A program made the position numbers and the translations under genes. From Cladosporium halotolerans (Eukaryota), in assembly GCF_011745625.1 (NCBI RefSeq), contig NW_027191471.1, positions 248,001 to 312,000 of the forward strand: a DNA stretch of 64,000 bases, given 5' to 3'. Below, piece after piece: positions 30,801-61,417 of this stretch (within the stretch, counting starts at the first letter, position 1; every line of letters begins with the position of its first letter). Under the pieces are notes generated by a model. The model was not told where the DNA came from and searched no databases. It worked only from the letters and a program-made list of their open reading frames with translations.

Positions 30801-31089
30801 CCTGAAAGATGTGGCGCGTAGCGCGCTACGTGAGAAATGGAGAGTCGCAGGTTCGAGAGCACCGTATCTAGAGAGGTATTTCTCAAAATAGTGCGTTGCA
30901 CGATGTTGTGGTTGCGAGCAGTTCGAATCGCGAAGTATGATGTAGGAAGCTTGAAGCCGCGAAGCTTGGCGCGCGACAGCGTTAAGCATGTGAACGCTCT
31001 CACGTCTTCACCAGAATCTTTGATCCTCCGTCGCAACTGCCACCACAACCCATTATCTGCACTGGGCCGAGCTCCAGCACTTCAACACC

Positions 31090-33120
31090 ATGGAGTCCTC
31101 GCGTGGCCCTCCAAGGGTCAAAAACAAGGCCGCTGCGCCGCAACAGATCAGCGCCGAGCAACTTCTTCGTGAGGCCGTCGACAGACAGGAACCGGAAGTT
31201 GAAAAGCCTACCCAGCGTTTTGCCGATCTAGAGGAGCTCCACGAGTACCAAGGACGAAAACGAAAGGAATTTGAGGACTATGTTCGCCGAAACCGCCTCA
31301 ACACCGGCAACTGGATGCGCTATGCGGTCTGGGAGCTGGAGCAGAAGGAGTACCGTCGCGCGCGGTCTGTGTTTGAGCGTGCCCTGGATGTGGACCCGAC
31401 GAATGTGCAGCTTTGGATGCGATATGTCGATTCTGAGATGAAGGAGCGCAATATCAACCATGCGCGAAACGTCCTCGACCGTGCGGTCACAATACAACCG
31501 CGTCTGGATAAGCTGTGGTACAAATATGTCTACATGGAGGAAATGCTGGGCCAGATCCCGAACGTAAGACAGGTCTTTGAGCGATGGATGAGCTGGGAAC
31601 CGGATGAGGCGGCTTGGTCGGCGTACATCAAGTTGGAGAAGAGGTACGGCGAGTACGACCGTGCGAGGAATATCTTCGAGCGCTTCACGATTGTCCACCC
31701 CGAGGCACGAAATTGGATCAAATGGGCGAGATTTGAGGAGGAGAACGGCACATCGGATTTAGTGAGGGAGGTGTTCGGCATGGCGATCGAAACCTTGGGC
31801 GACGACTTCATGGACGAGAAGCTTTTCATCGCCTACGCCCGGTTTGAGTCGAAACTGAAAGAGTACGAGCGTGCACGTGCGATCTATAAGTATGCCCTTG
31901 ATCGCATGTCACGTAGCAAAAGCGCCATCCTGCACAAGCAGTACACCCAGTTCGAGAAGCAGTTCGGTGATCAGGACGGCGTTGAAGATGTGGTACTGAG
32001 CAAGCGTCGCGTAATGTACGAGGAGCAAGTCAAAGAGAATCCCAAGAATTACGACGCTTGGTTCGACTACGCAAGGCTGGAGGAGACCTCAGCAAACCCC
32101 GATCGCGTGCGCGACGTCTATGAACGCGCCATCGCCCAAATGCCACCATCGCAGGAGAAGAGACACTGGCGCCGCTACATCTATCTTTGGGTTTTTTACG
32201 CGCTCTACGAAGAGCTCACCAATCGTGACATGGAAAGAGCAGGCCAGATCTACCAGGAATGCCTTAATCTCGTGCCTCACAAGAAATTCACCTTCGCGAA
32301 GATCTGGATCCTCAAGGCACAGTTCGAGCTGCGACAATGGCAGCTGGACCGGGCACGTAAGACGATGGGCATGTCCATCGGTATGTGTCCGAAGAACAAG
32401 CTTTTCCGAGCCTACATCGAAATGGAACTTAAGTTGTTCGAGTTCACGCGCTGTCGGACGCTTTACGAGAAGTGGATTGAATGGGACAGCGGCAACTGTA
32501 CTGCATGGATCAAATTTGCGGAGCTGGAGCGCGGACTGGAAGATTACGAGCGCGTCAGGGCAATCTTCGAGCTTGCTGTCGTCCAGCCGCAGCTCGACAT
32601 GCCGGAACTACTATGGAAAGCCTACATTGATTTCGAGGAGGAAGAGGCCGAGTATGAACGCACTCGGGGTCTGTACGAGCGTCTGCTGGAGAAGACCGAC
32701 CACGTCAAAGTTTGGACTTCGTACGCGCACTTCGAGATCAACGTGCCTGATAACGACGTCGAAGTCGGCGAGGACGAGGAAGTGCCTATTTCCGAAGCTG
32801 CGAAAGCACGTGCGAGGGCCGTCTTTCAGCGCGCGCACAAGCTGTACAAATCGAAAGATCTTATCAATGAACGTGTGGCATTGCTCAATGCTTGGAAGAG
32901 CTTCGAGGATGCGCACGGTAGCGAGGAGGACAAGGCGGCAATTGCCAAGCAAATGCCGAGAAAAGTCAAGAAAAGAAGAAGACTGGACGACGACTCCTTC
33001 GAGGAGTACATGGACTATGTCTTCCCGGCCGACGATGCAGGAGCGGCGGGTATGTCCAAGCTTATGGCAGCGGCACAGGCCTTCAAGCGCCAGCAGCAAG
33101 AGACTGCTTCGGCGTCGTAG
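31090..33120 (+). CDS. CLF1: Pre-mRNA splicing factor Clf1/Syf3 (crooked neck, HAT repeats)
   Basis: [23 protein letters not shown], many HAT repeats ([11 protein letters not shown]), [24 protein letters not shown]. Confidence 0.96.
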
Positions 33121-46731: not shown

Positions 46732-47785
46732 TTACACAAGCGTCTCCGCCCTTCTAATCATCTCTTCGTACACCGTCCACGCCAACGCACTGCTCAGCGC
46801 CTTCCTCCCAATCCTCAAGCTCAGCCCATCAAACATACTCCTCAGCCCCTCCTCGCGCAGCATCATCCCCGCCGCCTGCACCATATTCCCATACTTGGCC
46901 GGCATAAGCTGCAAGCGCGTCTTGATCGCATCGAACGGATTCGTGATCGTCGTCGCCGACACAGCAGCCACAATGCCCGAGACAAAATTCGTCGACGCCG
47001 CGCTCGTCGCCGTCGCCGCCCCTCCCGCATCCCCAAACACAGCTCCTCCTCCCCCCTCCATCGGCACCGCCCGCCTCTTCAACTCCCCTACCCTCGCCTT
47101 CGCCTGCTCATAAACCAGCACGTACAAGCCCGCGTACGGCGCGTCGCGCACGGCCGTCGCTCCAAACCCAGCGAAGAACCCGCGCACGCCCTCAGAGGCT
47201 ACAATGTGCCTCGCGGCGCCGGCGAGCGAGGTGTAAGAGTAGTACGAGCTCTCGTAGCGCACCTTCAGCACCGTGACGGGGTTCATGATGAACCCGGCCG
47301 CGACGCGCGCCAGAGCGCCAGACGACAGGTTCGCGATGTTGCTCAGTTTCGGCAGGGCCGAGGACGAGGCGGCGGAGGAGGTCGCGCCGCGCGCGGCATA
47401 GCTGCGCATGCTGTTCAGCATGCCGAAGTAGAGGGCGGAGCCGAAGCCGGTGCGGATGACGGAGGGCGTGGTGCCGCGCCAGAGCTGGCGCACGGGGTTG
47501 GGGCCATTGATGATCTGGCGGAAGGCTTGCGAGAGGGTGGAGGAGCGGGACTGCTGGACGCGGGTTTTGAGCAGGTCGGCGGGCTGCAGGAGGAAGGCGG
47601 TTGAGCAGCCGGAGCCGAGGCCGGCTAGGAAGTGGAAAGCTGGTGGAGAGAGTCAGTTTTGGGGGGTTTTTGGGGGTTTTTTGGTAGGTTCGTGAGGTGA
47701 GGTGTAGTTTCTTGGGCAAACATAAGCAGAGGCAGTCGAACATACCAGCAGACGCCTTCTTCCGGTCCTGCACTCCATTGGACAT
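46732..47785 (-). CDS. HEM25: Mitochondrial glycine carrier (SLC25A38/Hem25-like); exons 47785-47746, 47639-46732
   Basis: After intron 47640-47745: [10 protein letters not shown]...[12 protein letters not shown]. Also [64 protein letters not shown]. Confidence 0.9.
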
Positions 47786-48469: not shown

Positions 48470-51400
48470 TTAAGCACCCTCTTCCTCGGCTCCAGTAACG
48501 CTCTCGGGCTCGTCCAGCTCGTCTTCCAAGCTACGGAAGGCGGGCGGCTGGTCGTCTTCGACGTTGTCCAGATCCTCGTCACCTTCGGCATCCGGCTCAA
48601 GCTCGTCGTCGAAATCTGGGATCTGGGACGGCGCATCTTGCGCGTCGTGATCGTAGTCATTGGCTGCGAAGAGCTCCGGCGGGGTGCTAGGGTGGTCCTG
48701 CTCTGTCTCGACGTCGGTCACGGGCTGCTTACCCTGAGCCTTGGATGAGAACTCAGAGGGAGCAGGCTCATCCTCTTGGCGAGAAGTCGCACGCGAGAGA
48801 GCGGGCGCAGGAACCGAGCTGGTAGCCTCAGGTGCCGGAGAAGAGCGCAAGTTGGTAGCCGGGGGTGTCATCAGGCCGGCAAAGGAGGACGGAGGGGCCC
48901 GGGCGGAGACGGAAGGCCTAGAGGGCGTGTTGGAACGGGAAGGCGCAGCGCTGCCGCTCTTGGACTGCTGTTGCGACTTGAGCGTGTTGCTCTCCATACT
49001 GTTGCGCCACTTGTTGAACAAGCTGGTCGCTTTCGGTGTCGCAAAGCTTGTGAAGCTAGCCAGGGCCTGACCAGGCAGCGAGCCGCTTTGGCCAAAGCGT
49101 TCCTTCTCCTGCTGCTCCATCTGCAGGTTGGCACGGATGCGGATAGCAGTGTCGCGAACAGTGTCACGGTCGAATGTCGGGCGAGAAAGGGCATTGATGA
49201 GCTCAGTCAGCTCCTCGCTGCGAACGCCGAGAAGTTCGCGAAGCCAGGCGATCTCGGTGTCGCGCTCCTTGATCTTCGCAGGCCCTTCAGTCTTCGCCTT
49301 TTGCTGCAATTGCTCGATGCGTGTCTCGCGCTCCTGGAGCTGCTCCTGCAGAACCAAGATGGACTCGCGGAGGGCTTGTGGGGAGATCTTCTCAGGAATA
49401 GTGCTGCGAGCGTTCGGCGTCGGAGAGTTCTTGCCCTGGGCGCTCATAGCAGCTGCTTGCGCAGCAGACTTAGTGACCTCGAGACGCTCCTCCAGGTGCA
49501 GGACTCTGTCCTGGAAGTGCTGCAGCTTGGCATCAGCAAGAGTGAGGCGCTCGTTCAGGAAGTACTCGGAGCGGTCCTTGTCCTCGACCGCGTGGCGAAG
49601 CGCGCGACTGTGCTGGGCCTTCAGGTCCTCAACCGCAGAATCGTAGTTGGTCCTGGCCTTGTCGAGCGCGACGCTGTTGTCGTGGTTCACCTTGCGGAGA
49701 GCCTCACGCTTCTCGTCAGACTCAGCCTCGAGCATAATAGCGTGGCGCTCTTTGGCGGTGTCGGCATCCATGCGAACGCTGTCCAACTCAGCGCGCACCC
49801 GAGCGAGCTCGCTCTCGTACTCAGCGCGAACAATGTTGACCTGGTGGTTCGCCGCCTCGACATCCGTCTCAAGAGACATGCGGGTACGGTGGATTTCAGC
49901 GCGAGCGGATTCCCTAGCATCATGGTAATCGCGCTCCCAACGAGCAGTGAGAGCCTGCTGTTCCTTCAGCTCAGCCTGCTGCTTGCGAACCATCTCATCG
50001 AGCGACGCCTTCGAGGAGCGCATGTGGTCGAGCGAAAGCCTTGCATCCGTCGACTCCGCAGCAACAGCCCGCAGCTCACGGGCTTCCTCCTCGAGCGCGG
50101 CCCTCTCGCGCATGTGCACGTTGTTCTGCGCTTCGAGGACCTCGCAGCGAGCAATGTAATCCTCCTCTCTCGCGCGCCAGCTGGCCTTCTCGGTCGCCAG
50201 CTGGCCGGCAGCGGTAGCCATGTCGGAGTGCAGCTTCTCAAGCCTGCGGCGCATGCCATTGCCGGAGTCCTGAGTCTCCTCGAACTGGCGTTCAAGGCCA
50301 ACAATGGTGTTCTCAAGCTCCTCGCGCTCACGCTTGCCACCCTCGAGCTCCGCCTGCAGGCGGAGCTCGAACTCATCGCGCATACGGTTGCCGGCCTCGC
50401 GGGCAGACTGCAGACGCGATTCAAACTCGTCACGCACACGGTTGTGCGCCTCGCGCTCGGCCTGGAGACGGACCTCGAACTCTTCGCGCATGTACTTTCC
50501 AGACTCGTGATCCTTCTGCAGACGCAGCTCGAACTCCGTGCGCTCGCGCTTGTTAGCCTCCTGCTCGGCTCTGAGACGCTGCTCAGCCTGGACGGTAGCA
50601 TTGGCGAGCTCCGCCTTCTCGAGCTGCGCAGCCTCATGCTCAGCAAACGCACGCTGCTCAAGATCGGCAAGAGACTTCTCAAGCCTCTGCCTCTCCTGGT
50701 CAGCAGCCTCCTGCTGCGCAACGAGGCGCTGCTCCAGCTCGCTGACGTTGCTCTCGAGCTCGTCGCGCTCGGACTTGTTCTCGTCGATCTCCTGGCGCCA
50801 CCTGTGGCTAGAGGTGCGGTACTCCTCGAGCGTGGCCTGCATGGCCTCGTGCTCGGCCTCCATGCTCTGGCAGCGCTCCTCGGCCTGCTCGTGCGCCTGC
50901 TCGGCGGCCTCGGCGCGCTGGCGGAGCTCCTGGCGCTCTTGCTCGAGAGCGTGGAGTCTCGCGTCGTCGTCCTGGCTGGACTCGCGAAGCAGTCTGAGCT
51001 CCTCTTCCGCCAGCTTGAGCATACGCCTGACGTCGGCCTCGCGAGCCTCGGCCTGCTGTCTGTTGTTGGCGTCCTCAAGCGCGTTGGCAAGAGTCTCGTC
51101 GAGGCGGTTCTTCATCTCCTTGACTTCGCGCAACGATTCCTGCGAATCCTCGGCAGGAGGCGCGATCTGCTTGGGCTGCCTGTTGACGGCCTCTTCGACA
51201 ATGAGGCGGATGTCTTCAAGCTCAAGGCTGGCGGAGGCGGCCCTCGCGAAGGAAACCTTCATGTCAGCAAGCGCAGAGTGCAGGTCTGCGATGTCGTGGT
51301 ACGACTGCGAGGAGGCCGGAGCCTGCTCGCGGATCGCTTCAAGAACGATGGACTTGATCTGGCCCAGCTTGAAGTCGCGGCCGCGGGAAACGGGACGCTG

Positions 51401-54400
51401 GCGCTGAGAGTCATTGACGTCGTCCTCATCGTCCGCATCGCTTTCCGCGATGGAGGAGCTTCGAGGCTTGAGCGTGAGCTGCTGGTCAACAGACCTAGCG
51501 CGCTTGGTGACGGTGTTCTGGATGGCGCGAAGGCTGACCTCCAGAGGCTGAAGGCGGCGGTCGACGACACGGCCAATGACGCTATCAATGTGGCTGTCGA
51601 AGAACATGCTGCGCTGCTGAAGTTTGTCTTCATCAACAGGCGACAGCAGGCCCGACCAGTCGCTGTGTGCCGTCTCGTCGAGTTTGTTGAGACGCTGCGG
51701 TGGCCATCCGTTCATGCCCTGGTGCTGTTCGCCACTGTCGCTGCGATCGTGAGCGGTGAAAGATGACTCGTTGTGATTCTGGTAAGGAAGCTGTTGACGC
51801 TTGGGGCTTGGGCTGGGTGCATCACTACGGGGCCAACCAGGGATGTATGTAACGCCCTTGGGAGGCTGGAGGTCAGGGCTGCGAGAAGGCGAGATAGTTT
51901 TTGACGGACTCTCGTTCGGGACAGTCTCGACCTCGTTCATTTGCTGCATGATCGCATCGATTTCATCGAATGTCGGCTCGCCACGCGGCTCGTCGCTGGT
52001 CTCCACGCTGTCGGGAAGGTTGTACGGCCTGAGCGGCTCCGACAGAGAAGGCGTAGTATCACGGTCTGTAGGCGCCTCCTCATGCGTATTAGCCGCATGG
52101 ACGGGCACAGCAGGAGCAGGCTCGTCTTCGACGATCTCGCCTTCTTCCAGCTCGCTGATAGATTCCTGCGGAACATGGGTGTTCTTGACAGGAGACTTGG
52201 CTTGCTCGAGAGACGACTGTGGGCCGTGGAACACAAAAGGCCTGGCCATGGCAGAGAGCGAGCTGCTCGACTTCTTGTGGCCTTTCTGGTAAGTGGATGG
52301 AGCCGCAGCTTGCACAGTTTTGTTGGCATTCTGCACGGTCGCTTCTGGCTCAAGTTCCTTGTTCGAACGCTTGGGGGAGCCCTCGGGGCTTCTTGCGACG
52401 GGGAACATGTCCGCTGGCTGCGTCGGGACGACAGGCGTGGGTGTAGGTTCGGCGAACTGAGGAACTTCATCTCCATCGCTGCCGCCGAAAGCGCGTTGCC
52501 TCTTCTGGCGCTCGTCACCGCGCTTGAGACGGCCTTCATCGTCCTCAACTTCAGTGCCGGAATCAGCATTTGCCTTACTAGGCTGGAGAATGGGCACAGC
52601 CTTGGACTTCTTGGTCGGCTTGACGATCTCCGGAATGGTGACCTTGCCAAAGATCTTGCCCTCGTCAGAAGAGCCGACTTCCGTGCTGGTCGGCTGGAAT
52701 GCCGGCGCATCCACCTTGAAGGACGGACCGCTGGCGGAGAAACTGAAGCCCGAAGAGGGCACAGTTGAGGAGTTGCCGGGCTCGAACGTGACCGCAGCAG
52801 GGTTGAAATGACCGGAAGACTTCTGCCTGGAGTGTGTCGTTGACGTCGCCGAGGGAGGGGCAATAGGCTCCTGGGCTGGTTCCGCGCGGAAGGAAAAGGA
52901 GCTCGCGCCCGGTTGGAACTCTGCGCTGGGGTTGAAGCGGAATGAGGACGCAGGGGGAGCAACGGGCGGAGTAGGCGCAGGTGGGGCGATGATGTTCGCG
53001 CGGGTGCCTGTCTTCCTGTGGCCACGAGCTGCCTGGGCCACGACGAAGTCACCACCAAGAGGGTCCTTCTCCTCGACAGGCGTTTCCTCCTCCTCGGCAG
53101 CAGGCTTGAAATCGTTGATTTGAGGGTGGAAGCCATTCGTCATTGGGGCTTGCGATCCGAACTGGCCGAAACCACCGAATGGTCGAACCTCATCTTCTTG
53201 ACGACGCTGCTCTGCCTCCATGACCTCGCGCTCCAGGCCCTCGCTGATGTTGTGACGATGGCCTCGGGGCGTCGGGATTGCGATCTCATGACCGGACTGC
53301 TGTCGCTTAGCAGGGGGCACGTATGGCTGAGGGTCCGATAGTTCTTCTTCGTCCTCATCCTCGGGCAGTTCCGGCAATACAGGCTGGGGTCCAATGCTCA
53401 GACGACCAGTCTGCGGAGAGAAATTCCTCGACATAGACGGCACTTGCACAGACTGCGAGTAGCCATGCTGTCTGCGCCTTTGGTCGTCAATCATGCCCCT
53501 GCTGTAATCTGAAGTCGATTGCGGTAGAACCTGGTTGGTGAGCGGTGATCCAGGGCCGCGCAAGCCACCAAGCTCGTTGCGCAAAGCCGTGACCTGCGCA
53601 GGAGAGCCGATACGAGGAAGCTGAGATTGTGTGATAGGCGAGAAGTTTCCAAGACCAGGAAGCGGCGCTTGACGGGGCTGGTCTTGTGCTTGCTGACTAG
53701 GTGATACGAATCCAGGGAATGCACCGTGGAAGGTAGAGTGACGGTGCATGTGTCCAAACGGACCATTGAGCGGCGAAATTGGAGAAGCCATGGACATTGT
53801 GTGAGAGTGGCCACGGATCATGCCGGGGCGGCCGATACTGGCGGCGGAGCCAGTCGTGAGCGGCGGCGAGAATGGCAGAGGTGGGTACTGGTTTGAGGAC
53901 TGGCGAGACATGTCCTGCGAAGGAGGCGCCGGCGCGGGTTCATCGTCTCCCATGCTCACGCCGAGAGCCGCAAGCCTGGCTTCCGTCAAAGCCTCCATGT
54001 AATCGGCCCAAAGCTTGCTGTTGGGCAGCTGCACTTTGTGTTCTTTGTTGTCGAGCATATGCTGCTTCATTTCCGCCTCATCTGGCCACATTGGCTTGGC
54101 ATGCATAGACATGTCATCTCCAGGGATCACGTAACTAATGTCGAATCCACTTGTGTCGTAGCCCTCGTCTTCAAACCCCTTTAGTCTTTGCTGGAACTCC
54201 TCATTGCTCATGGGCTTCATCAGCCCAAGCGCATCGTAGTCGAGTTTCGGAATCGAGATGATACAGTTTTTTCCGCGCCAACTAACGCGTTTCCTAAGTT
54301 TGGGCGGCGCCAGTCGCGTGGGTTCCGGAAGTGGTTTCACCAGGTCTGCCGGATTGCGCTGTTCAGATTCGCTCTTGCTGTGCTCGTTCTCTGAGACTTC

Positions 54401-55363
54401 GATCGACGGTGGCTCTGTTCTCTTCTCTGGGGCGACAGGCTCTGCGGCTGTGTTCTCTGCGCCACTGTTCGCCTGGTCTTGAGTTGTGTCCTCTTCGGCA
54501 TTCTCGTCATCCGCCGGGGGCGCAGGCAATGGCTTCTCGTCGAAGTAGCCGGGATTCTTCGAATCATGCATCGCAGACATCTTTGCCGGCGATTCGTCCT
54601 CAGACGGGGTGGCAGCCCACCGCGACGCCTGCAAGCCAGCCATATCCGTGACCTTCTCCTCTTGAAGAATGTTCCAAAAAGACTGCTGATCTAGCGTCCT
54701 GTTCTCTTCCCTTGTCTTGTGACCACGCGGCCTGCCTCGAGAGCTCGCTCTAGAAATACTAGGGTCTCTGCTTTGAGAGTTGTAGTCCGATCCTTCGCCC
54801 CACCAGTGATCCCTCGCTAGCGGTTTATAAGGTACTTCTGCCCAGCGCTTTGTTCGCGAGCGTGGCGTGTGATCGTTGTCCTCTTCGAACGGGCCTGCTG
54901 TCGGAACGTCGAGCAGGGATGGGCGTGTGACGGGGGATGGCGGGTCGTTGAATCTGCTCGGGATCAAGTGCTCTAGACTGAAGCTAGGACCTGGCGAGGA
55001 GTTTGTGAAGCGGTCGCTGTACTCTTGTTCGGAGACGGCCGTACGGGCTGAGCGCGACAGAAGGGATGGGGAAAACTGATACGGCGATCCCCAAGCTGCG
55101 GTGTAGTACTCAGAAGCGTGATCCGGAAGCTCGGATGCTGGACTGGGCTGGCGGGCCCGGTTGTGCGCGGGAGTCCTGGGTATCTCAAGATGGGTGATGT
55201 CCGATGCAACACTGATGTCGTCTGATATCTTGACAGAGGCGGCGCGTGAGCGGGACGATGGGCGGTGTTCAGAAGGTGATTCCGGGGCTAGGACGAGATC
55301 ATAGCTGCCTGAGGGCGATGATGTCGGCGACAGTCTGGGTTTGCTTGCCGAAGGGCCTGCCAT
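48470..55363 (-). CDS. Very large (up to 2297 aa) protein with a disordered N-half carrying PAM2-like motifs and a long C-terminal coiled coil; no myosin motor
   Basis: Uninterrupted ORF with strong codon bias. The E/R/Q/L-rich helical region spans about aa 1400-2080. The start codon is uncertain (55363 or 54643). Confidence 0.85.
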   Translation of the reverse strand: MAGPSASKPRLSPTSSPSGSYDLVLAPESPSEHRPSSRSRAASVKISDDISVASDITHLEIPRTPAHNRARQPSPASELPDHASEYYTAAWGSPYQFSPSLLSRSARTAVSEQEYSDRFTNSSPGPSFSLEHLIPSRFNDPPSPVTRPSLLDVPTAGPFEEDNDHTPRSRTKRWAEVPYKPLARDHWWGEGSDYNSQSRDPSISRASSRGRPRGHKTREENRTLDQQSFWNILQEEKVTDMAGLQASRWAATPSEDESPAKMSAMHDSKNPGYFDEKPLPAPPADDENAEEDTTQDQANSGAENTAAEPVAPEKRTEPPSIEVSENEHSKSESEQRNPADLVKPLPEPTRLAPPKLRKRVSWRGKNCIISIPKLDYDALGLMKPMSNEEFQQRLKGFEDEGYDTSGFDISYVIPGDDMSMHAKPMWPDEAEMKQHMLDNKEHKVQLPNSKLWADYMEALTEARLAALGVSMGDDEPAPAPPSQDMSRQSSNQYPPLPFSPPLTTGSAASIGRPGMIRGHSHTMSMASPISPLNGPFGHMHRHSTFHGAFPGFVSPSQQAQDQPRQAPLPGLGNFSPITQSQLPRIGSPAQVTALRNELGGLRGPGSPLTNQVLPQSTSDYSRGMIDDQRRRQHGYSQSVQVPSMSRNFSPQTGRLSIGPQPVLPELPEDEDEEELSDPQPYVPPAKRQQSGHEIAIPTPRGHRHNISEGLEREVMEAEQRRQEDEVRPFGGFGQFGSQAPMTNGFHPQINDFKPAAEEEETPVEEKDPLGGDFVVAQAARGHRKTGTRANIIAPPAPTPPVAPPASSFRFNPSAEFQPGASSFSFRAEPAQEPIAPPSATSTTHSRQKSSGHFNPAAVTFEPGNSSTVPSSGFSFSASGPSFKVDAPAFQPTSTEVGSSDEGKIFGKVTIPEIVKPTKKSKAVPILQPSKANADSGTEVEDDEGRLKRGDERQKRQRAFGGSDGDEVPQFAEPTPTPVVPTQPADMFPVARSPEGSPKRSNKELEPEATVQNANKTVQAAAPSTYQKGHKKSSSSLSAMARPFVFHGPQSSLEQAKSPVKNTHVPQESISELEEGEIVEDEPAPAVPVHAANTHEEAPTDRDTTPSLSEPLRPYNLPDSVETSDEPRGEPTFDEIDAIMQQMNEVETVPNESPSKTISPSRSPDLQPPKGVTYIPGWPRSDAPSPSPKRQQLPYQNHNESSFTAHDRSDSGEQHQGMNGWPPQRLNKLDETAHSDWSGLLSPVDEDKLQQRSMFFDSHIDSVIGRVVDRRLQPLEVSLRAIQNTVTKRARSVDQQLTLKPRSSSIAESDADDEDDVNDSQRQRPVSRGRDFKLGQIKSIVLEAIREQAPASSQSYHDIADLHSALADMKVSFARAASASLELEDIRLIVEEAVNRQPKQIAPPAEDSQESLREVKEMKNRLDETLANALEDANNRQQAEAREADVRRMLKLAEEELRLLRESSQDDDARLHALEQERQELRQRAEAAEQAHEQAEERCQSMEAEHEAMQATLEEYRTSSHRWRQEIDENKSERDELESNVSELEQRLVAQQEAADQERQRLEKSLADLEQRAFAEHEAAQLEKAELANATVQAEQRLRAEQEANKRERTEFELRLQKDHESGKYMREEFEVRLQAEREAHNRVRDEFESRLQSAREAGNRMRDEFELRLQAELEGGKREREELENTIVGLERQFEETQDSGNGMRRRLEKLHSDMATAAGQLATEKASWRAREEDYIARCEVLEAQNNVHMRERAALEEEARELRAVAAESTDARLSLDHMRSSKASLDEMVRKQQAELKEQQALTARWERDYHDARESARAEIHRTRMSLETDVEAANHQVNIVRAEYESELARVRAELDSVRMDADTAKERHAIMLEAESDEKREALRKVNHDNSVALDKARTNYDSAVEDLKAQHSRALRHAVEDKDRSEYFLNERLTLADAKLQHFQDRVLHLEERLEVTKSAAQAAAMSAQGKNSPTPNARSTIPEKISPQALRESILVLQEQLQERETRIEQLQQKAKTEGPAKIKERDTEIAWLRELLGVRSEELTELINALSRPTFDRDTVRDTAIRIRANLQMEQQEKERFGQSGSLPGQALASFTSFATPKATSLFNKWRNSMESNTLKSQQQSKSGSAAPSRSNTPSRPSVSARAPPSSFAGLMTPPATNLRSSPAPEATSSVPAPALSRATSRQEDEPAPSEFSSKAQGKQPVTDVETEQDHPSTPPELFAANDYDHDAQDAPSQIPDFDDELEPDAEGDEDLDNVEDDQPPAFRSLEDELDEPESVTGAEEEGA
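50312..50551 (-). repeat. 54-bp (18-aa) coding tandem repeat R(T/E/D)EFExRLQ within the coiled coil, 4-5 copies
   Basis: RTEFELRLQKDHESGKYM / REEFEVRLQAEREAHNRV / RDEFESRLQSAREAGNRM / RDEFELRLQAELEGGKRE / REELEN. Confidence 0.85.
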
Positions 55364-58075
55364 CCCACGTGTCAGTTGTTGGGATGTTGAGTACCGGATG
55401 GTAGTTTGTGCTCCATGTGCTCCTTACCTTCCAGATTGGCGTCAATGCCGAGCGACCGGTGACCGCTCGCGGACCCTTTCTTGCTCGACACCTTTGCAGA
55501 TCGATCCTCGCAGCGCGTAGGCTATGCTCTTGCTCCGTCGTGCTCGACACGACAGGTAATGCTCCAGAAATCACGCTCCACAAACGAAAGGTGGTGCTCG
55601 ACGCGCCTTGAAAGGAGAGACAAGCGCGACCAATCAGCAATACAAGCCAAACGGCATAATCCAAGCAGCGCGAAAACGGGACAAATACAAGCTGACGGGG
55701 ATGGCAATAGCGACGATCCAAGCTCGGCGCCCTTTCTCTGGGTCGGTGAGGGCTCCAAAGAAGGGTGCAGATGCGGTGTCTGGCGAAAATGTTACAGGGG
55801 GCACGGCCGCCTTGGGATTCGGGGGAGACAAATGACGGAGGGCAGCGCACGGTGCCGCGGACGGTGAGCTGCTCATTTGCCAGCGGAGGAGAACGTGTCA
55901 TGCCGCCGCCAGCAGCCTTGGGCTGGCACGCATGCAGTGTGCGGCAGTATTGCTGGTTCTTGCCTGCAACACGATCGGATGTATGCACACTTCGGCCATC
56001 TGACATCGGACGAACACGACGTGAAGACGGCATTAATGTACGCCTCGTCACGTGAATTCGCGAATTGGCTTCTCCTCAAGTCCGGTACGGGCGGGTGCAG
56101 GGATCCAGCTGTTCTTTGTTGATTTCAGGGACTCTTCGGCTGCGGGGCGCGTCTGGCCGATCACACCGCTGTGTGCAGGTTTTGTGAGGGTTAGGGTTGG
56201 GGTAAGCCACTTCACATGAACAATAAAGGCCTTGGGCGTCGGAAGGAAGCACGTGTGGTTTTTGTGGACGTAGATGCTCTGAAAATAAGTCGAGCAATTC
56301 TTTCCCCTCGAAGTGTCAGGTATCTGGCTTTTTGAGGCTTGACGCCAACTCACCGTCCCATCCCACCCTCACCAAATCCCAAATCAGCATTCGCATGTCC
56401 GCCCTCAACATCCAAATACGCCGGAACAGCATCATACTCATCGCTTTGGAGATCGCGAAGGTTCTGGACGATGGAATTGATTACGTGAGAACTCCAGCGT
56501 GATCAATGGTCAAAATGATAGGTCATACATCTTCGTTCATATGTACATCTTCAACGACCGTACCTGGAGCTCAAAGCGTTGGAGTACGTACGCCTCAAAC
56601 GCGCATTTTTATAGCTGCGCCTTCAAAAGAAACGCCACGGCCTTTCGGAGCTCAAACATTGGCTCATCACATGGTCTGAAACGCAACTTTGACGCGTGGT
56701 ACGTCGAGAAAGAAGGCTCTGTGTCCAAATGCCGGCTGCAGACCGCCGAAGCACTCGAGTACCAGCCTGCACGGGTAGGGCGGCGTACGTGGCGAGTCGA
56801 AGCCACGCAGTGGTTCCACATGTAGAATCATATTTTGGCGCTATGAGCCATGCAAACGTACCTGTGCTGGTTTACAAGCCGCTGCAGGTACGATGATTGT
56901 TGTGTGATAAGAAGGTCTCAAAGTCCACCCCCCGTGAAGCTTGTGAGGTGCTTGAGGTTGCGGCACGGAGCCATTGCCCACGAATACAACTCAGTTCCCT
57001 TGCGCGACTTGGAGAGACAACGCTGACGACTAGCCATTGCAGTGTCACGCAGGGTGATTTCGTAGGTTTGCTCCATGTTCGACGGAGGCATGCGAGGGTC
57101 ATCTTGGTATGCTCAAGGTGATGTCTCTGGCGTCTCTTGCAGTGTGGCGACGGCGATGTCAAGGACCGGCAACTCTTCCATGTGAGTCGTGTATCACATG
57201 GCGACTAAGGTAAACGCAGAGAACAGGCACGACAGGAGGCGAAATGCAATGCTGAAGTTAGTTGCAGATGGATAACTGTCCTGCGTGATCGGGTACTCCG
57301 AGGACACAGCGTCATACTCGGACGCTCATGCTAGTTCCAAACGGAGATTAGAGCAAAGGAGATACTCGGGTGTAGGCTGTCGTAACGGCTTGGAATATGT
57401 TGTGTGGCCAAACGAACCATGCAATGATGTTTTTTGCTGAGCCGCAGGAGCAGCTTTTCTCGGCCGTACAAGCAGCCAAGGAGGGCGTGGGGCGAAGCAC
57501 CGGGATGGCTTACGTCGGTCGTTAGATAGCGCACGTGATAATGCACAACGAGCTTTGTGCAGACGAAGACCCGCTAAATGTACGATACAGGCATACGATT
57601 GGTCTATAGTCAGCATGCAGCATAAATCTGCAACGGGCAAAGGAGCCGTCGCCGATCGGTGGCTGAAGGATACCGAGGCACAAGCTTTAGTGCCTGAGCT
57701 AACGGGGCCACGGACTGGCGATTGACGACAAGAATTGTGTCCCATCGTCTCGCTTGCGACACTCGCGGCGCGGAATGCCCACCACACGGACAAGACGGCT
57801 GAGACATCTTGCTCCGGCCTGCCATCTGTGCTTATAAGGCCTTTTTGCCAGCAACGCTGTAGGAGAGCTCTCACATCATCCCCGCTTGACTTCACGTGTT
57901 TGTCTCACAGCAGTGGCGTCAGCTCTGCTCAACCGCCCCACGATCCACGACGTGCTGACTACAGATCAACACCGCTCTCTGATCCATAACCACACAAGCA
58001 GCCTCCTTCAACCTCCTCATCGCCGCTGCTTACCCCTGACTGCATCACCCTCGCGCCCCAGCGCCTATCACCGGC

Positions 58076-61000
58076 ATGGCTACCATCGACGAGAGGGACA
58101 CCGTCCCTATTCCTCAGCCACGCGGCTACCCTCTGGTTGGTAACGTCACAGATGTCGATCCCGAACAGCCCATAGCATCTTTGATGAATCTCTCGCGCCA
58201 GTATGGTATGTCTGGTCTCAAAAATGGCTTAGTGGTTTCACCTGCTGACAGAGCTTAAGGCGAGATCGTATCCTTGACACTGTTCGGCCAGCGCCGTATC
58301 TTTGTCAACACGGTCGAGCTACTCAACGAGGTCTGCGACGAGAAACGCTTCACTAAGTCCGTCTCAGCTGCCCTCGGGGAGCTTCGTGCTGGTATTCATG
58401 ATGGCCTTTTCACTGCCCACCACGGCGAAAAGAACTGGGAGATTGCCCATCGCACCCTGGTACCCGCCTTCGGACCCCTCCACATGAAAGACATGTTCGA
58501 CGACATGAAGGACCTCGCTTCTCAGCTTGTCCTGAAATGGGCTCGCATGGGTCCCACTTACTGCATTCCGGCCGCCGAGGACTTCACCAGACTGACTCTC
58601 GACACTCTTGCGTTGTGCGCCATGTCTTACCGCTTCAACTCATTTTACAAGGATGAAATGCACCCCTTCATCGATGCTATGGTCAACTTCCTCAAGGTCG
58701 GTGGTAGCAAGACCAGACGTCCCAATGTAATGGCACCCTTCTTCCGCGCCGAGGATCAGCAATTTGACGCGAGCATCAAATACATGCGCGACTTGAGCGC
58801 AGATCTTGTCAGGCAAAGGCGTGAGAACCCAACAGAGACAAAGGACCTGATGAACGCCATGATCAATGGCAAGGATCCCAAGACTGGAGAGTCCCTGAGT
58901 GAAGATTCTATCATCGACAACATGATCACATTTCTCATCGCCGGGCACGAGACCACCTCGGGCTTACTCGTAAGTTATTGATTCAGCGATTCAAGCCATC
59001 TCATGCACTCACTCACTGGAAAATAGAGTTTCTTGTGGTATTACATGCTCAAATCGCCCGAAGCCTACAGGAAGGCCCAAGAAGAAGTCGATACCGTCAT
59101 CGGAAGACGCAGCATCCAATACGAAGATCTTAACAAGCTCCCCTACATCAACGCCATGCTTCGCGAGACTCTCCGCCTGCAGCCTACTGCACCCGGCTTC
59201 TCGGTTACGCCTAAAGCAGAGGGTGGCGAGATCATCGGTGGTAAATACCACGTCAAGAAGGGAGAATCCATGCTGGGTGTGCTCCACTGCGTGCACCGCG
59301 ACCCGGCGGTGTATGGGGCAGATGCAGAAGAATGGAAGCCTGAGCGTATGCTCGATGAGAATTTCGAGAAGCTCCCTCCCGGCTCCTGGAAGCCGTTCGG
59401 AAACGGCGCGAGAGCGTGCATTGGCCGTCCCTTTGCATGGCAGGAGGCTCAGCTCGTTGTCGCCACTCTGCTCCAATACCTCAACTTCCATATGGACGAC
59501 TCCAGCTATGATCTGCAAGTCAAGGCGACCCTGACGATCAAGCCCAAGGACTTCAATGTCCGTGCTACCCTGAGGGAGGGATGGACAGCGACGAAGATCG
59601 AGCAAAACCTGTCTGGATCTATCCGTGGAGACAAGGAGGACCGCCACAGCTCCAAAGCTGCCGCGCCCGAAAACGACGCAGGCATCCCCTTTACTGTCCT
59701 ATACGGAAGCAACAGCGGCACTTGTGAGGCGTTCGCTCAGACTTTGGCGGCCGATGCGGCGTCTCATGGCTTCAAAGCGAGCAAGGTCGACAGTCTTGAT
59801 TCGTTTGCCAGGCAGAACGACCCTCCTAGCGAGCCCGTCGTCATCGTCACAGCCAGCTATGAGGGAGAACCCCCCGACAACGCGGCACACTTCTACAATT
59901 GGCTATCCACCCTGCCGGATGACAAGAAGCTCAACACCTCTCACGCTGTGTTTGGTGCAGGCCACTCGGATTGGAACGCCACTTTCCATCGTGTACCTAC
60001 TGCGGTGGATGAGATGCTTGCGAAACACGGTAGCAAGACTATCTGCCCACGTGGTGGCGCCGATGCCGCTAAAGGAGACATGATGAGCGACTTCCAGACC
60101 TGGGAGGATCAGGTGCTGTGGCCTGCAATGAAGGAGGCCTGCGGCGGCAAAGACGCCAGTCTGGAGGCCGAAGCGTCCGTGGGATCTCAGAATCTCAGCG
60201 TCGAGGTCACTAGTCGCCGCGCTTCTCATCTTCGAGCTGATGTCAGTGAAGCTAAGGTACTCGCCGCCCGTACTCTGACTGCACCTGGTGTGCCGGAGAG
60301 AAGGCACATTGAGATCCAGCTTCCTTCAGCGATGACCTACCGAGCTGGCGACTACCTCGCCATTTTGCCATTGAATCCGACCGAGACAGTTCATCGCGTG
60401 GCCACTCGCTTCGGTCTGCCCTGGGATAGCATGTTGACCATCACCTCTAAGACCAGCACCGCTCTGCCAACCAACAGTCCTATCTCCGCCCATTCGCTGT
60501 TCTCCGCGTACCTGGAGCTTTCCCAACCTGCTACCAAGCGCAACCTTGCTATGTTGATTTCAGTGGCCACCGAGAAGAAAGACAAGGAGGCCCTGGAGTC
60601 TCTTGCCTCTGATGAGAACTTCACCAACGAGATCACTGCCAAGCGTGTCTCGCTCCTCGATCTGCTCGAACGCTTCCCGGACCTCCCTCTCCCGTTGTCG
60701 GCCTTTATCGCCTCTCTGATCACGATGCGCGTGCGCCAGTACAGCGTATCCTCATCTCCGCTCAGCAACCCCAACGTCACGTCGCTCACGTATGCCGTCC
60801 TTGACAAACCAGCCCTGTCAGGTCAAGGACGCTACATCGGCGTCGCAAGCCACTACCTCTCGAAGCTCAAGCCGGGCGACATGGTCCATGTCGCTGTCAA
60901 GCCCTCTCACCAAGCTTTCCACCTGCCCGCCAAGGGTGAGGAGACCCCCATCATCATGGTGGCCGCCGGCACAGGCCTGGCTCCCTTCCGTGGCTTCATC

Positions 61001-61417
61001 CAAGAACGCGCCGCACAGATCGGTGCAGGCCGCGCTCTCGCGCCGGCACACCTTTACATCGGCTGCAGGCACCCGGAGAAAGACGAGCTGTACCGCGAAG
61101 ACATGAGCCGCTTCGAGAAGCTCGGCGCCGTCGAAATCCACCGCGCCTACTCGCAAGCGCCCGAGCACAGCAACGGCTACAAGCACGTCGACGACGTCTT
61201 GCGCGCCGACAGGGAGCTGCTAGGCCAGCTCTGGAAGGATGGCGCCAGGGTGTATGTTTGCGGCAGCAAGGGTGTTGGCGACGCTGTCAAGGACATTGCG
61301 ATTGAGCAGCGCAGGCAGTGGCTTACGGAGCAGGGCGAGGATGACAGCCAGGAGGCGGCCAACAAGTGGTTTGAGAGTATCAGGAACGAGAGGTACAGCA
61401 CTGATGTTTTCGATTAG
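58076..61417 (+). CDS. CYP505: Self-sufficient P450/NADPH-P450 reductase fusion (CYP505, P450foxy-like); exons 58076-58205, 58260-58969, 59027-61417
   Basis: FLIAGHETTSG, ETLR, PFGNGARACIG, flavodoxin LYGSNSGT/TASYEG, FAD RQYSVSSS, NADPH AAGTGLAPFRGF, C-terminal RYSTDVFD. Introns 58206-58259 and 58970-59026. Confidence 0.96.

What the first reader, a model, noticed from the sequence alone, without database searches (positions are those of the whole stretch)
52226..52950. Four clustered PAM2-like motifs plus a long coiled coil: an Upa2-like mRNA-transport scaffold in an ascomycete?
Seen: SSFRFNPSAEFQP (~52908-52950), SGHFNPAAVTFEP (~52775-52820), PSFKVDAPAFQP (~52688-52726) and SSLSAMARPFVF (~52226-52265) lie in a disordered region N-terminal to a ~700-aa coiled coil. 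Known: PAM2 motifs (xxL[N/S]xxAxxFxP) bind the MLLE domain of poly(A)-binding protein. Ustilago maydis Upa2 is a >2000-aa protein with four PAM2 motifs and a C-terminal coiled coil that acts in endosomal mRNA transport; as I recall, that machinery is thought to be largely absent from Ascomycota. Inference: this motor-less protein may be an overlooked Upa2 homologue or analogue linking PABP-bound mRNPs to a dimeric scaffold. Upa2's C-terminal GWW motif is not present here.
Basis: partly seen in the sequence, partly recalled or inferred. Interest (0 to 1): 0.7.

Follow-up and report, generated by a model that had tools for sequence, protein, structure and literature searches.

The report
PxdA endosome tether carrying PAM2 motifs
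This gene is the counterpart of PxdA, a known fungal protein that lets cargo ride on moving endosomes, and its floppy middle carries a conserved row of short peptides of the kind that dock onto poly(A)-binding protein, which suggests a testable way for messenger RNA particles to attach to it.

Summary
The four motifs are real and lie in one 2297-aa ORF on the minus strand. The protein is the single-copy orthologue of Aspergillus nidulans PxdA (AN1156), the early-endosome hitchhiking tether (BLASTP E 2e-100 and 4e-40), in a Cladosporium-like fungus. The motifs are conserved: 366 of 367 full-length family members (a redundant set) match the PAM2 pattern, and PxdA itself has four at the aligned sites. 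They are canonical PAM2 (Pab1-type), not the Rrm4-type PAM2L. Most likely the coiled coil holds the endosome while the PAM2 row binds poly(A)-binding protein on mRNPs, which a 2026 preprint shows hitchhike through PxdA by an unknown link. Binding is inferred; co-folding gave only weak support. It works like Upa2, but homology to Upa2 could not be tested here: GWW is absent and published BLAST searches found no link. Not new: a 2026 preprint notes 'PAM2L' motifs in PxdA in one sentence, and this scan reported the same reading twice on other genomes, which is where my PxdA lead came from.

The parts
48470..55363 (-). pxdA orthologue, longest ORF from the first ATG, 2297 aa (P0001); no intron inside the coding stretch downstream of 55356
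   Evidence: BLASTP to AN1156 E 2e-100 and 4e-40; single copy in G000; one run contig spans 47972-55762 with a single joint
55357..55427 (-). 71-nt GT..AG intron that contains the ATG at 55363; when it is spliced out, the first in-frame ATG is at 54643 (M241, 2057 aa)
   Evidence: joint seen in contigs of runs X1 and X16, not in X15; translation of the spliced form
53936..54310 (-). conserved N-terminal block (aa 352-476): beta-hairpin plus helices, non-compact; partner unknown
   Evidence: AF2 pLDDT 82, pTM 0.37; no fold match
54278..54295 (-). RKRVSW (aa 357-362), resembles a PP1-docking RVxF/W motif (consensus recalled); only partly conserved
   Evidence: 165 of 367 keep a strict RVxF-type match, 286 a looser one; lost in many Pleosporales
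52889..53005 (-). PAM2 site 1 (aa 787-825): degenerate here, canonical in most orthologues (e.g. AN1156 aa 829-841)
52775..52813 (-). PAM2 site 2 (aa 851-863), ELM match; aligns with AN1156 aa 876
   Evidence: co-folded with MLLE
52691..52726 (-). PAM2-like site 3 (aa 880-891), relaxed match; aligns with the ELM match at AN1156 aa 913
52226..52264 (-). PAM2 site 4 (aa 1034-1046), ELM match; aligns with AN1156 aa 1108
48881..51232 (-). region equivalent to PxdA CC1-3 (AN1156 aa 1466-2116 = P0001 aa 1378-2161)
50330..50782 (-). lineage-specific coiled-coil insertion of about 147 aa, with 54-bp (18-aa) repeats at 50318-50491
49100..49174 (-). endosome-association patch (aa 2064-2088 = AN1156 aa 2034-2058); R2075 corresponds to the arginine of the R2044P allele
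   Evidence: record numbering appears shifted by one against the papers; inferred

Best explanation
The gene encodes the PxdA orthologue, a two-ended hitchhiking tether. Its C-terminal coiled coil (CC2/3, with the conserved arginine patch) holds the early endosome and serves peroxisome hitchhiking; this is shown for A. nidulans and inferred here by orthology. Its disordered N-terminal half, dispensable for peroxisomes, carries three to four canonical PAM2 motifs that bind the MLLE domain of poly(A)-binding protein (inferred). Several weak sites, doubled if the coiled coil dimerises (inferred), would grip mRNAs coated with several Pab1 molecules, gather them into larger particles and carry them on moving endosomes. 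This is the job that Upa2 does in Ustilago.
For: Orthology; my profile search also recovered SMAC_05260, a listed PxdA homologue. Motif conservation: 322 ELM matches in 121 Dothideomycete-range proteins against 4.6 expected, and 213 of 213 anchored matches within one 330-aa zone; 108 of 109 full-length 50%-cluster representatives have at least one and 98 at least two; 117 of 117 Eurotiomycete-range hits have at least two; present in Sordariomycetes and Leotiomycetes. Pfam PAM2 passes its cut-off of 20 bits in A. unguis (27.3) and A. egyptiacus (25.4) and just misses in AN1156 (19.9). The genome has a Pab1 with a normal MLLE and a DipA-type gene. Co-fold of MLLE with aa 843-895: weak support, score 0.39 against best control 0.01, runs agree in at least 82% of contacts, partner pLDDT at least 51; the mark was reached by 51 of 78 solved and 2 of 108 mismatched pairs, but at 0.60 or under by only 5 of 78 solved and all 4 passing mismatches, and MLLE-PAM2 complexes are solved, so it may reflect memory. 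Literature: FabM-positive SsdA mRNPs need PxdA and DipA to move, and are fewer and dimmer without them; the link is unknown. The N-terminal half is dispensable for peroxisome movement.
Against: No binding was measured. In Ustilago all four Upa2 PAM2 motifs and the Upa1 PAM2 bind Pab1 yet are dispensable for transport. SsdA movement also needs DipA, so the attachment may run through DipA. The preprint tested SsdA, not FabM, in pxdA deletion in the sections I read. P0001 itself has no Pfam PAM2 hit, site 1 is degenerate and 40% of family matches have F in place of the L at position 3. Some orthologues keep only one match (Botrytis, Monilinia, Xylona) and one has none (P0244). The PxdA pull-down analysed only one excised band, DipA, so it says nothing on FabM. 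Nothing was tested in this species.
Confidence: 0.62

Rival explanations
1. The motifs bind Pab1, but mRNPs attach to the endosome mainly by another route (DipA, the coiled coil, the conserved N-terminal block or SsdA). The PAM2 row is redundant, or it regulates translation or poly(A) turnover of the cargo by competing with other PAM2 proteins.
For: PAM2 motifs of Upa2 and Upa1 are dispensable, and Upa2's essential parts are an N-terminal effector region (aa 339-599) and GWW. dipA deletion also stops SsdA movement. This protein has a strongly conserved non-PAM2 block at a similar position, aa 352-476.
Against: Motifs are kept in nearly all orthologues across several classes. Ascomycetes are reported to lack Rrm4, which removes one redundant route known in Ustilago.
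Confidence: 0.27
2. The phenylalanine/proline heptad repeats are not MLLE ligands. They are aromatic stickers for condensation or ligands of another domain, and the PAM2 match is incidental.
For: Many orthologues expand overlapping 7-residue FxPxAP repeats that fall outside the strict consensus. The co-fold pass is weak.
Against: The anchor sites follow the full PAM2 consensus (L/F3, N/S4, F10 in 99%, K/P8, E9 frequent, though the pattern itself fixes positions 3, 4, 7 and 10), and Pfam PAM2 passes its cut-off in two Aspergillus orthologues.
Confidence: 0.1
3. PxdA and Upa2 are hidden orthologues: one ancestral Dikarya endosomal mRNP scaffold, too diverged for BLAST. This is an evolutionary rival to convergence and is compatible with the best explanation.
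For: Same size class (2121 against 2236-2297 aa) and order of parts: a conserved region near aa 340-600, a PAM2 cluster at aa 834-1216 against 787-1046, a C-terminal coiled coil, C-terminal endosome targeting. Reported ranges are complementary. Songster et al. allow that a diverged U. maydis homologue could have been missed.
Against: No GWW in the last 200 aa of any of 367 proteins. No N-terminal PAM2 as in Upa2. Upa2 targeting needs Rrm4 and GWW, PxdA targeting needs CC2/3. BLASTp negative. My N-block profile hit only 304 clusters in all, with only the best 150 visible, and a word-based search listed 58 hits of which all named ones are Pezizomycotina; both tests are insensitive to this question.
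Confidence: 0.22
4. It is a myosin II heavy chain, as databases label the family.
For: UniRef and NCBI names.
Against: No motor-domain or myosin-tail Pfam hit and no PDB match better than E 0.1.
Confidence: 0.01

Closest known systems
PxdA (Aspergillus nidulans AN1156; A. fumigatus Afu1g11450; Sordaria SMAC_05260), early-endosome hitchhiking tether; family carries Pfam PF26916/DUF8275
   Same: Homologous along its length (36% over 645 aa in the coiled coil, 26% over 1001 aa N-terminal), same layout, conserved endosome patch arginine, PAM2 sites at aligned positions, single copy, DipA-type gene in the genome.
   Different: Coiled coil longer by about 147 aa than in other Capnodiales-range orthologues; PAM2 site 1 broken by an insertion; the first ATG lies in a spliced intron; untested in this species.
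Upa2 (Ustilago maydis UMAG_10350), multi-PAM2 scaffold of endosomal mRNPs
   Same: Size, four PAM2-type sites with a central cluster, disordered N-terminal half, C-terminal coiled coil, role on early endosomes in mRNP transport (role of PxdA).
   Different: No GWW; all sites central, none at the N-terminus; endosome binding by coiled coil, not by Rrm4-dependent GWW; also tethers peroxisomes; no sequence homology shown.
Upa1 (U. maydis UMAG_12183) PAM2L motifs that bind Rrm4 MLLE3
   Same: Endosomal adaptor with MLLE-binding short motifs; the term PAM2L was applied to PxdA in one preprint sentence.
   Different: The PAM2L pattern [DE][DE]FxY is absent from P0001 and AN1156 and not enriched in the family (7 against 6.8 expected); no FYVE or ankyrin hit in P0001.

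Membership tests
PxdA | Sequence homology to AN1156 in both coiled coil and N-terminal region | tested here: met
   E 2e-100 and 4e-40
PxdA | One-to-one orthology (reciprocal best hit) | tested here: inconclusive
   single copy in G000; no search of the whole A. nidulans proteome was possible
PxdA | Long N-terminal region, about 600-aa tandem coiled coil, short C-terminal tail | tested here: met
   boundaries map to aa 1378 and 2161
PxdA | Conserved CC3 patch with the R2044 arginine | tested here: met
   arginine present in 16 of 16 aligned proteins, P0001 R2075; one-residue numbering offset inferred
PxdA | Moves with early endosomes, binds DipA, needed for peroxisome hitchhiking | not testable with these tools
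   DipA-type DUF2433 gene present; cell biology needed
PAM2 motif (PF07145 / ELM LIG_PAM2_1) | L/F-N/S-x-x-A-x-x-F-x-P/F pattern in a disordered region, conserved in orthologues | tested here: met
   sites 2 and 4 full match, sites 1 and 3 relaxed only in this species
PAM2 motif (PF07145 / ELM LIG_PAM2_1) | Pfam PAM2 score over the cut-off | tested here: inconclusive
   no hit in P0001; 2 of 6 orthologues pass and AN1156 scores 19.9 of 20
PAM2 motif (PF07145 / ELM LIG_PAM2_1) | Binds the MLLE domain of poly(A)-binding protein | tested here: inconclusive
   co-fold weak support, 0.39 against control 0.01, possibly from memory of solved complexes
PAM2L (Upa1 type, Rrm4 ligand) | Acidic stretch followed by FxY | tested here: not met
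Upa2 | Multiple PAM2 motifs, central cluster | tested here: met
Upa2 | C-terminal GWW motif | tested here: not met
   absent from P0001 and from the last 200 aa of 367 of 367 proteins
Upa2 | Sequence or profile homology to UMAG_10350, including the effector region aa 339-599 | not testable with these tools
   no Upa2 sequence could be fetched; published BLASTp negative
Upa2 | Co-occurrence with Rrm4 | tested here: inconclusive
   only one MLLE match in G000, in Pab1; Rrm4 MLLE domains score poorly in profile scans, so they could be missed
Myosin II heavy chain | Motor domain | tested here: not met

The most novel reading that the evidence does not exclude
PxdA and Upa2 are the two surviving branches of one ancestral Dikarya scaffold whose original job was to grip Pab1-coated mRNPs on early endosomes through a PAM2 array. 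Ascomycetes then did not lose this machinery: after losing Rrm4 they kept the scaffold, anchored it by its coiled coil and added peroxisome hitchhiking.
Probability: 0.2. Interest if true: 0.75.

Novelty: new member of a known kind. Interest (0 to 1): 0.42.

Why it matters
How mRNPs attach to endosomes in filamentous ascomycetes, which lack Rrm4, is an open question stated in a 2026 preprint. Four mapped, conserved Pab1-type motifs in the half of PxdA that peroxisomes do not need turn this into a direct test with strains that already exist (the N-terminal deletion, tagged FabM and SsdA), and would separate the mRNA and peroxisome functions of PxdA. It could also explain why loss of PxdA changes development and secondary metabolites more than loss of peroxisome hitchhiking alone. 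The surprise is limited, because the PxdA laboratory has already remarked on such motifs.

Tried and rejected
Fetching Upa2: the published paper is not held, one supplement search found nothing, another paper's supplements could not be read, and bioRxiv supplements are closed; these unseen files may list Upa2 motifs and orthologues. The three homologue searches and the one representative search could not reach basidiomycetes in their listed rows; only 150 of 304 hits were visible. PDB sequence searches found nothing useful. The AF2 model of the N-terminal block matched no fold (Foldseek no E under 0.001; VIA best Z 2.9, rmsd 9.9, 56 aligned); this does not show the fold is new. ESM Atlas: the N-block gave only leads under 0.9, among them a cluster with PP1c_bdg in 29% of members; a full-length orthologue gave the DUF8275 cluster and two clusters with PAM2 in 19% and 31% of members, taxa not recorded, so they cannot be called Upa2. 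A PP1-docking role for RKRVSW was considered and kept only as a lead. No RNA holder listed on record. A genome-wide PAM2 family scan scored a single candidate elsewhere and is uninformative. The FYVE and RNB scans (6 and 3 matches) were not resolved into Upa1-like or Ssd1 genes. P0179 was picked as a possibly basal member but its closest named relatives are Venturiales, so no Pezizomycete or Orbiliomycete orthologue was knowingly checked for the motifs.

Full report
Observation. The four peptides lie in one minus-strand ORF, 48470-55363, 2297 aa from the first ATG (P0001), at aa 806-818, 850-862, 880-891 and 1034-1045. Sites 2 and 4 match the ELM PAM2 pattern (recalled); 2000 shuffles of the N-terminal 1250 aa gave 0.026 matches on average and never two. 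Site 3 matches a relaxed pattern. Site 1 as written is one residue short; alignments show it is the tail of a conserved site whose front half is interrupted here by a 12-aa proline-rich insertion. There is no GWW. Pfam finds nothing in P0001.

Family. A search with aa 340-720 gave 255 hits, 120 listed; the named ones are Dothideomycetes, the closest Cladosporium fusiforme, and databases call them 'myosin class II heavy chain'. There is no motor domain. A look-up of earlier scan notes pointed to PxdA, and I tested this. The first 400 residues of AN1156 in Songster et al. 2023 (PMC10295486; passages, methods section, part 1 of supplements 1 and 3) share several blocks with P0001 by eye. A profile of the N-terminal block found 304 clusters at 50% identity, 150 listed. 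One is SMAC_05260, a PxdA homologue in that table, and an Aspergillus-like hit led to AN1156 itself (P0307). BLASTP gives 36% over 645 aa (E 2e-100) and 26% over 1001 aa (E 4e-40). The CC1-3 boundaries map to aa 1378-2161 and the endosome patch to aa 2064-2088, with the arginine in 16 of 16 aligned proteins; the record has it at 2045, and the same one-residue shift fits two of the three nonsense alleles. The gene is single copy, and the genome has a DipA-type gene and one MLLE protein, Pab1.

Conservation of the motifs. In the 121 proteins of the first search there are 322 ELM matches against 4.6 expected from shuffles, 118 of 121 have two or more, and 213 of 213 matches that could be anchored fall in one zone of about 330 aa. 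Of the 129 new representatives, 109 were at least 1700 aa (20 shorter fragments left out); 108 of 109 have a match and 98 have two or more. All 117 new hits of the Aspergillus-centred search have two or more. AN1156 has four, at aa 829, 876, 913 and 1108, aligned with the four sites here. Pfam PAM2 scores 19.9 bits on AN1156 (cut-off 20) and passes in 2 of 6 orthologues scanned. Sordariomycete and Leotiomycete members carry one to six. Over all 367 full-length proteins, a redundant and related set, 366 have one or more and 351 two or more; the PAM2L pattern [DE][DE]FxY occurs 7 times against 6.8 expected and never in P0001 or AN1156. Against: one representative has none (P0244), Botrytis, Monilinia, Sclerotinia and Xylona have one, and 40% of matches have F at position 3.

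Binding. Co-folding the genome's own MLLE domain with aa 843-895 gave weak support: 0.39 against a best control of 0.01, runs agreeing in at least 82% of contacts, partner pLDDT at least 51. Passes at 0.60 or under came from 5 of 78 solved pairs and all 4 passing mismatches, peptides are untested in the calibration, and like complexes are solved, so this adds little.

How it most likely works. [quoted passage not shown] Shown here: the dispensable half carries a conserved PAM2 array. Inferred: the array binds Pab1 MLLE domains, several at once, and so grips and clusters mRNPs on the endosome (0.62). Taken step by step, I put orthology to PxdA at about 0.97, MLLE binding at about 0.85, and a measurable part in transport lower, because the PAM2 motifs of Upa2 and Upa1 bind Pab1 but are dispensable (10.1101/455378, sections 5, 9, 11, 23; PMC4466420, passages).

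Relation to Upa2. It works like Upa2 in size, layout and probable role. Membership is not shown. GWW is missing in the tails of 367 of 367 proteins; Upa2 is reported for Basidiomycota (10.1101/467787, part 1 of 2; PMC7550108, passages) and PxdA for Pezizomycotina only, by BLASTp, with a stated caveat. I could not obtain Upa2 for a profile test. The complementary ranges and matching layout keep hidden orthology at about 0.2.

What is in print. Searches for PxdA with PAM2 (5 papers, 3 listed), PxdA with Upa2 (4 papers, 3 listed) and PxdA with MLLE, Pab1 or FabM were run on open-access full text only. [quoted passage not shown] Two other listed papers (10.1101/418079, PMC8004493) I saw only as search listings. 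In passages of PMC12852828, PMC11572963, PMC9249222 and PMC8399174 I saw no PxdA-PAM2 link. What this analysis adds is the positions, the breadth of conservation, and that the motifs are of the Pab1 type, not the Rrm4 type.

Verdict. A real feature of a known protein, glimpsed in print and twice before in this scan, with a sharp and cheap test. New member of a known kind; interest 0.42.

Noticed in passing
window 55357-55427 (-): A 71-nt GT..AG intron removes the ATG at 55363 in contigs of two runs. The spliced form has short upstream ORFs at 55657 and 55302, in-frame near-cognate codons at 55518, 55491 and 55434, and its first in-frame ATG at 54643, although aa 86-230 hold blocks conserved as far as A. 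nidulans. Long and short isoforms or a non-AUG start are possible; both keep the PAM2 sites.
   Followed up: partly
window 50330-50782 (-): The coiled coil has a 125-175 aa insertion in the 17 closest, Cladosporium-like relatives, built from different repeats in different species, against a fixed 48-aa spacing in the more distant ones printed; it would lengthen the tether by roughly 20 nm (0.15 nm per residue, recalled).
   Followed up: partly
window 53936-54310 (-): A conserved 125-aa block, locally confident but non-compact in AF2 (pLDDT 82, pTM 0.37), starting with an RVxW-like hairpin; it looks like a segment that folds on a partner and sits where Upa2 has its unmapped effector region.
   Followed up: partly
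window 53240-53290 and 53880-53920 (-): Further short invariant motifs in the disordered half (PTPRGHRHNIS at aa 697-707, MSRQSS at aa 485-490 and repeated RxxS sites) may be kinase or 14-3-3 sites (inference).
   Followed up: no
P0285, P0289, P0296, P0417 and other hits: Several Aspergillus and Sclerotinia gene models fuse a GH17 glucanase domain (PF00332) to the PxdA N-terminus, and Zymoseptoria and Pseudocercospora models fuse a Zn2Cys6 gene; probably merged neighbours in annotation, which hints at conserved gene order.
   Followed up: no
G000:C35:329182-329208 (+): Another ORF of 824 aa in the genome passes the Pfam PAM2 cut-off when neighbouring hits are summed (21.3 bits); not identified.
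   Followed up: no
window 46732-47652 (-), 58259-61414 (+), 31024-33117 (+): Neighbours read by eye as a mitochondrial carrier, a P450 fused to its reductase and a crooked-neck-type splicing factor (labels recalled, not scanned); no link to the finding seen.
   Followed up: no
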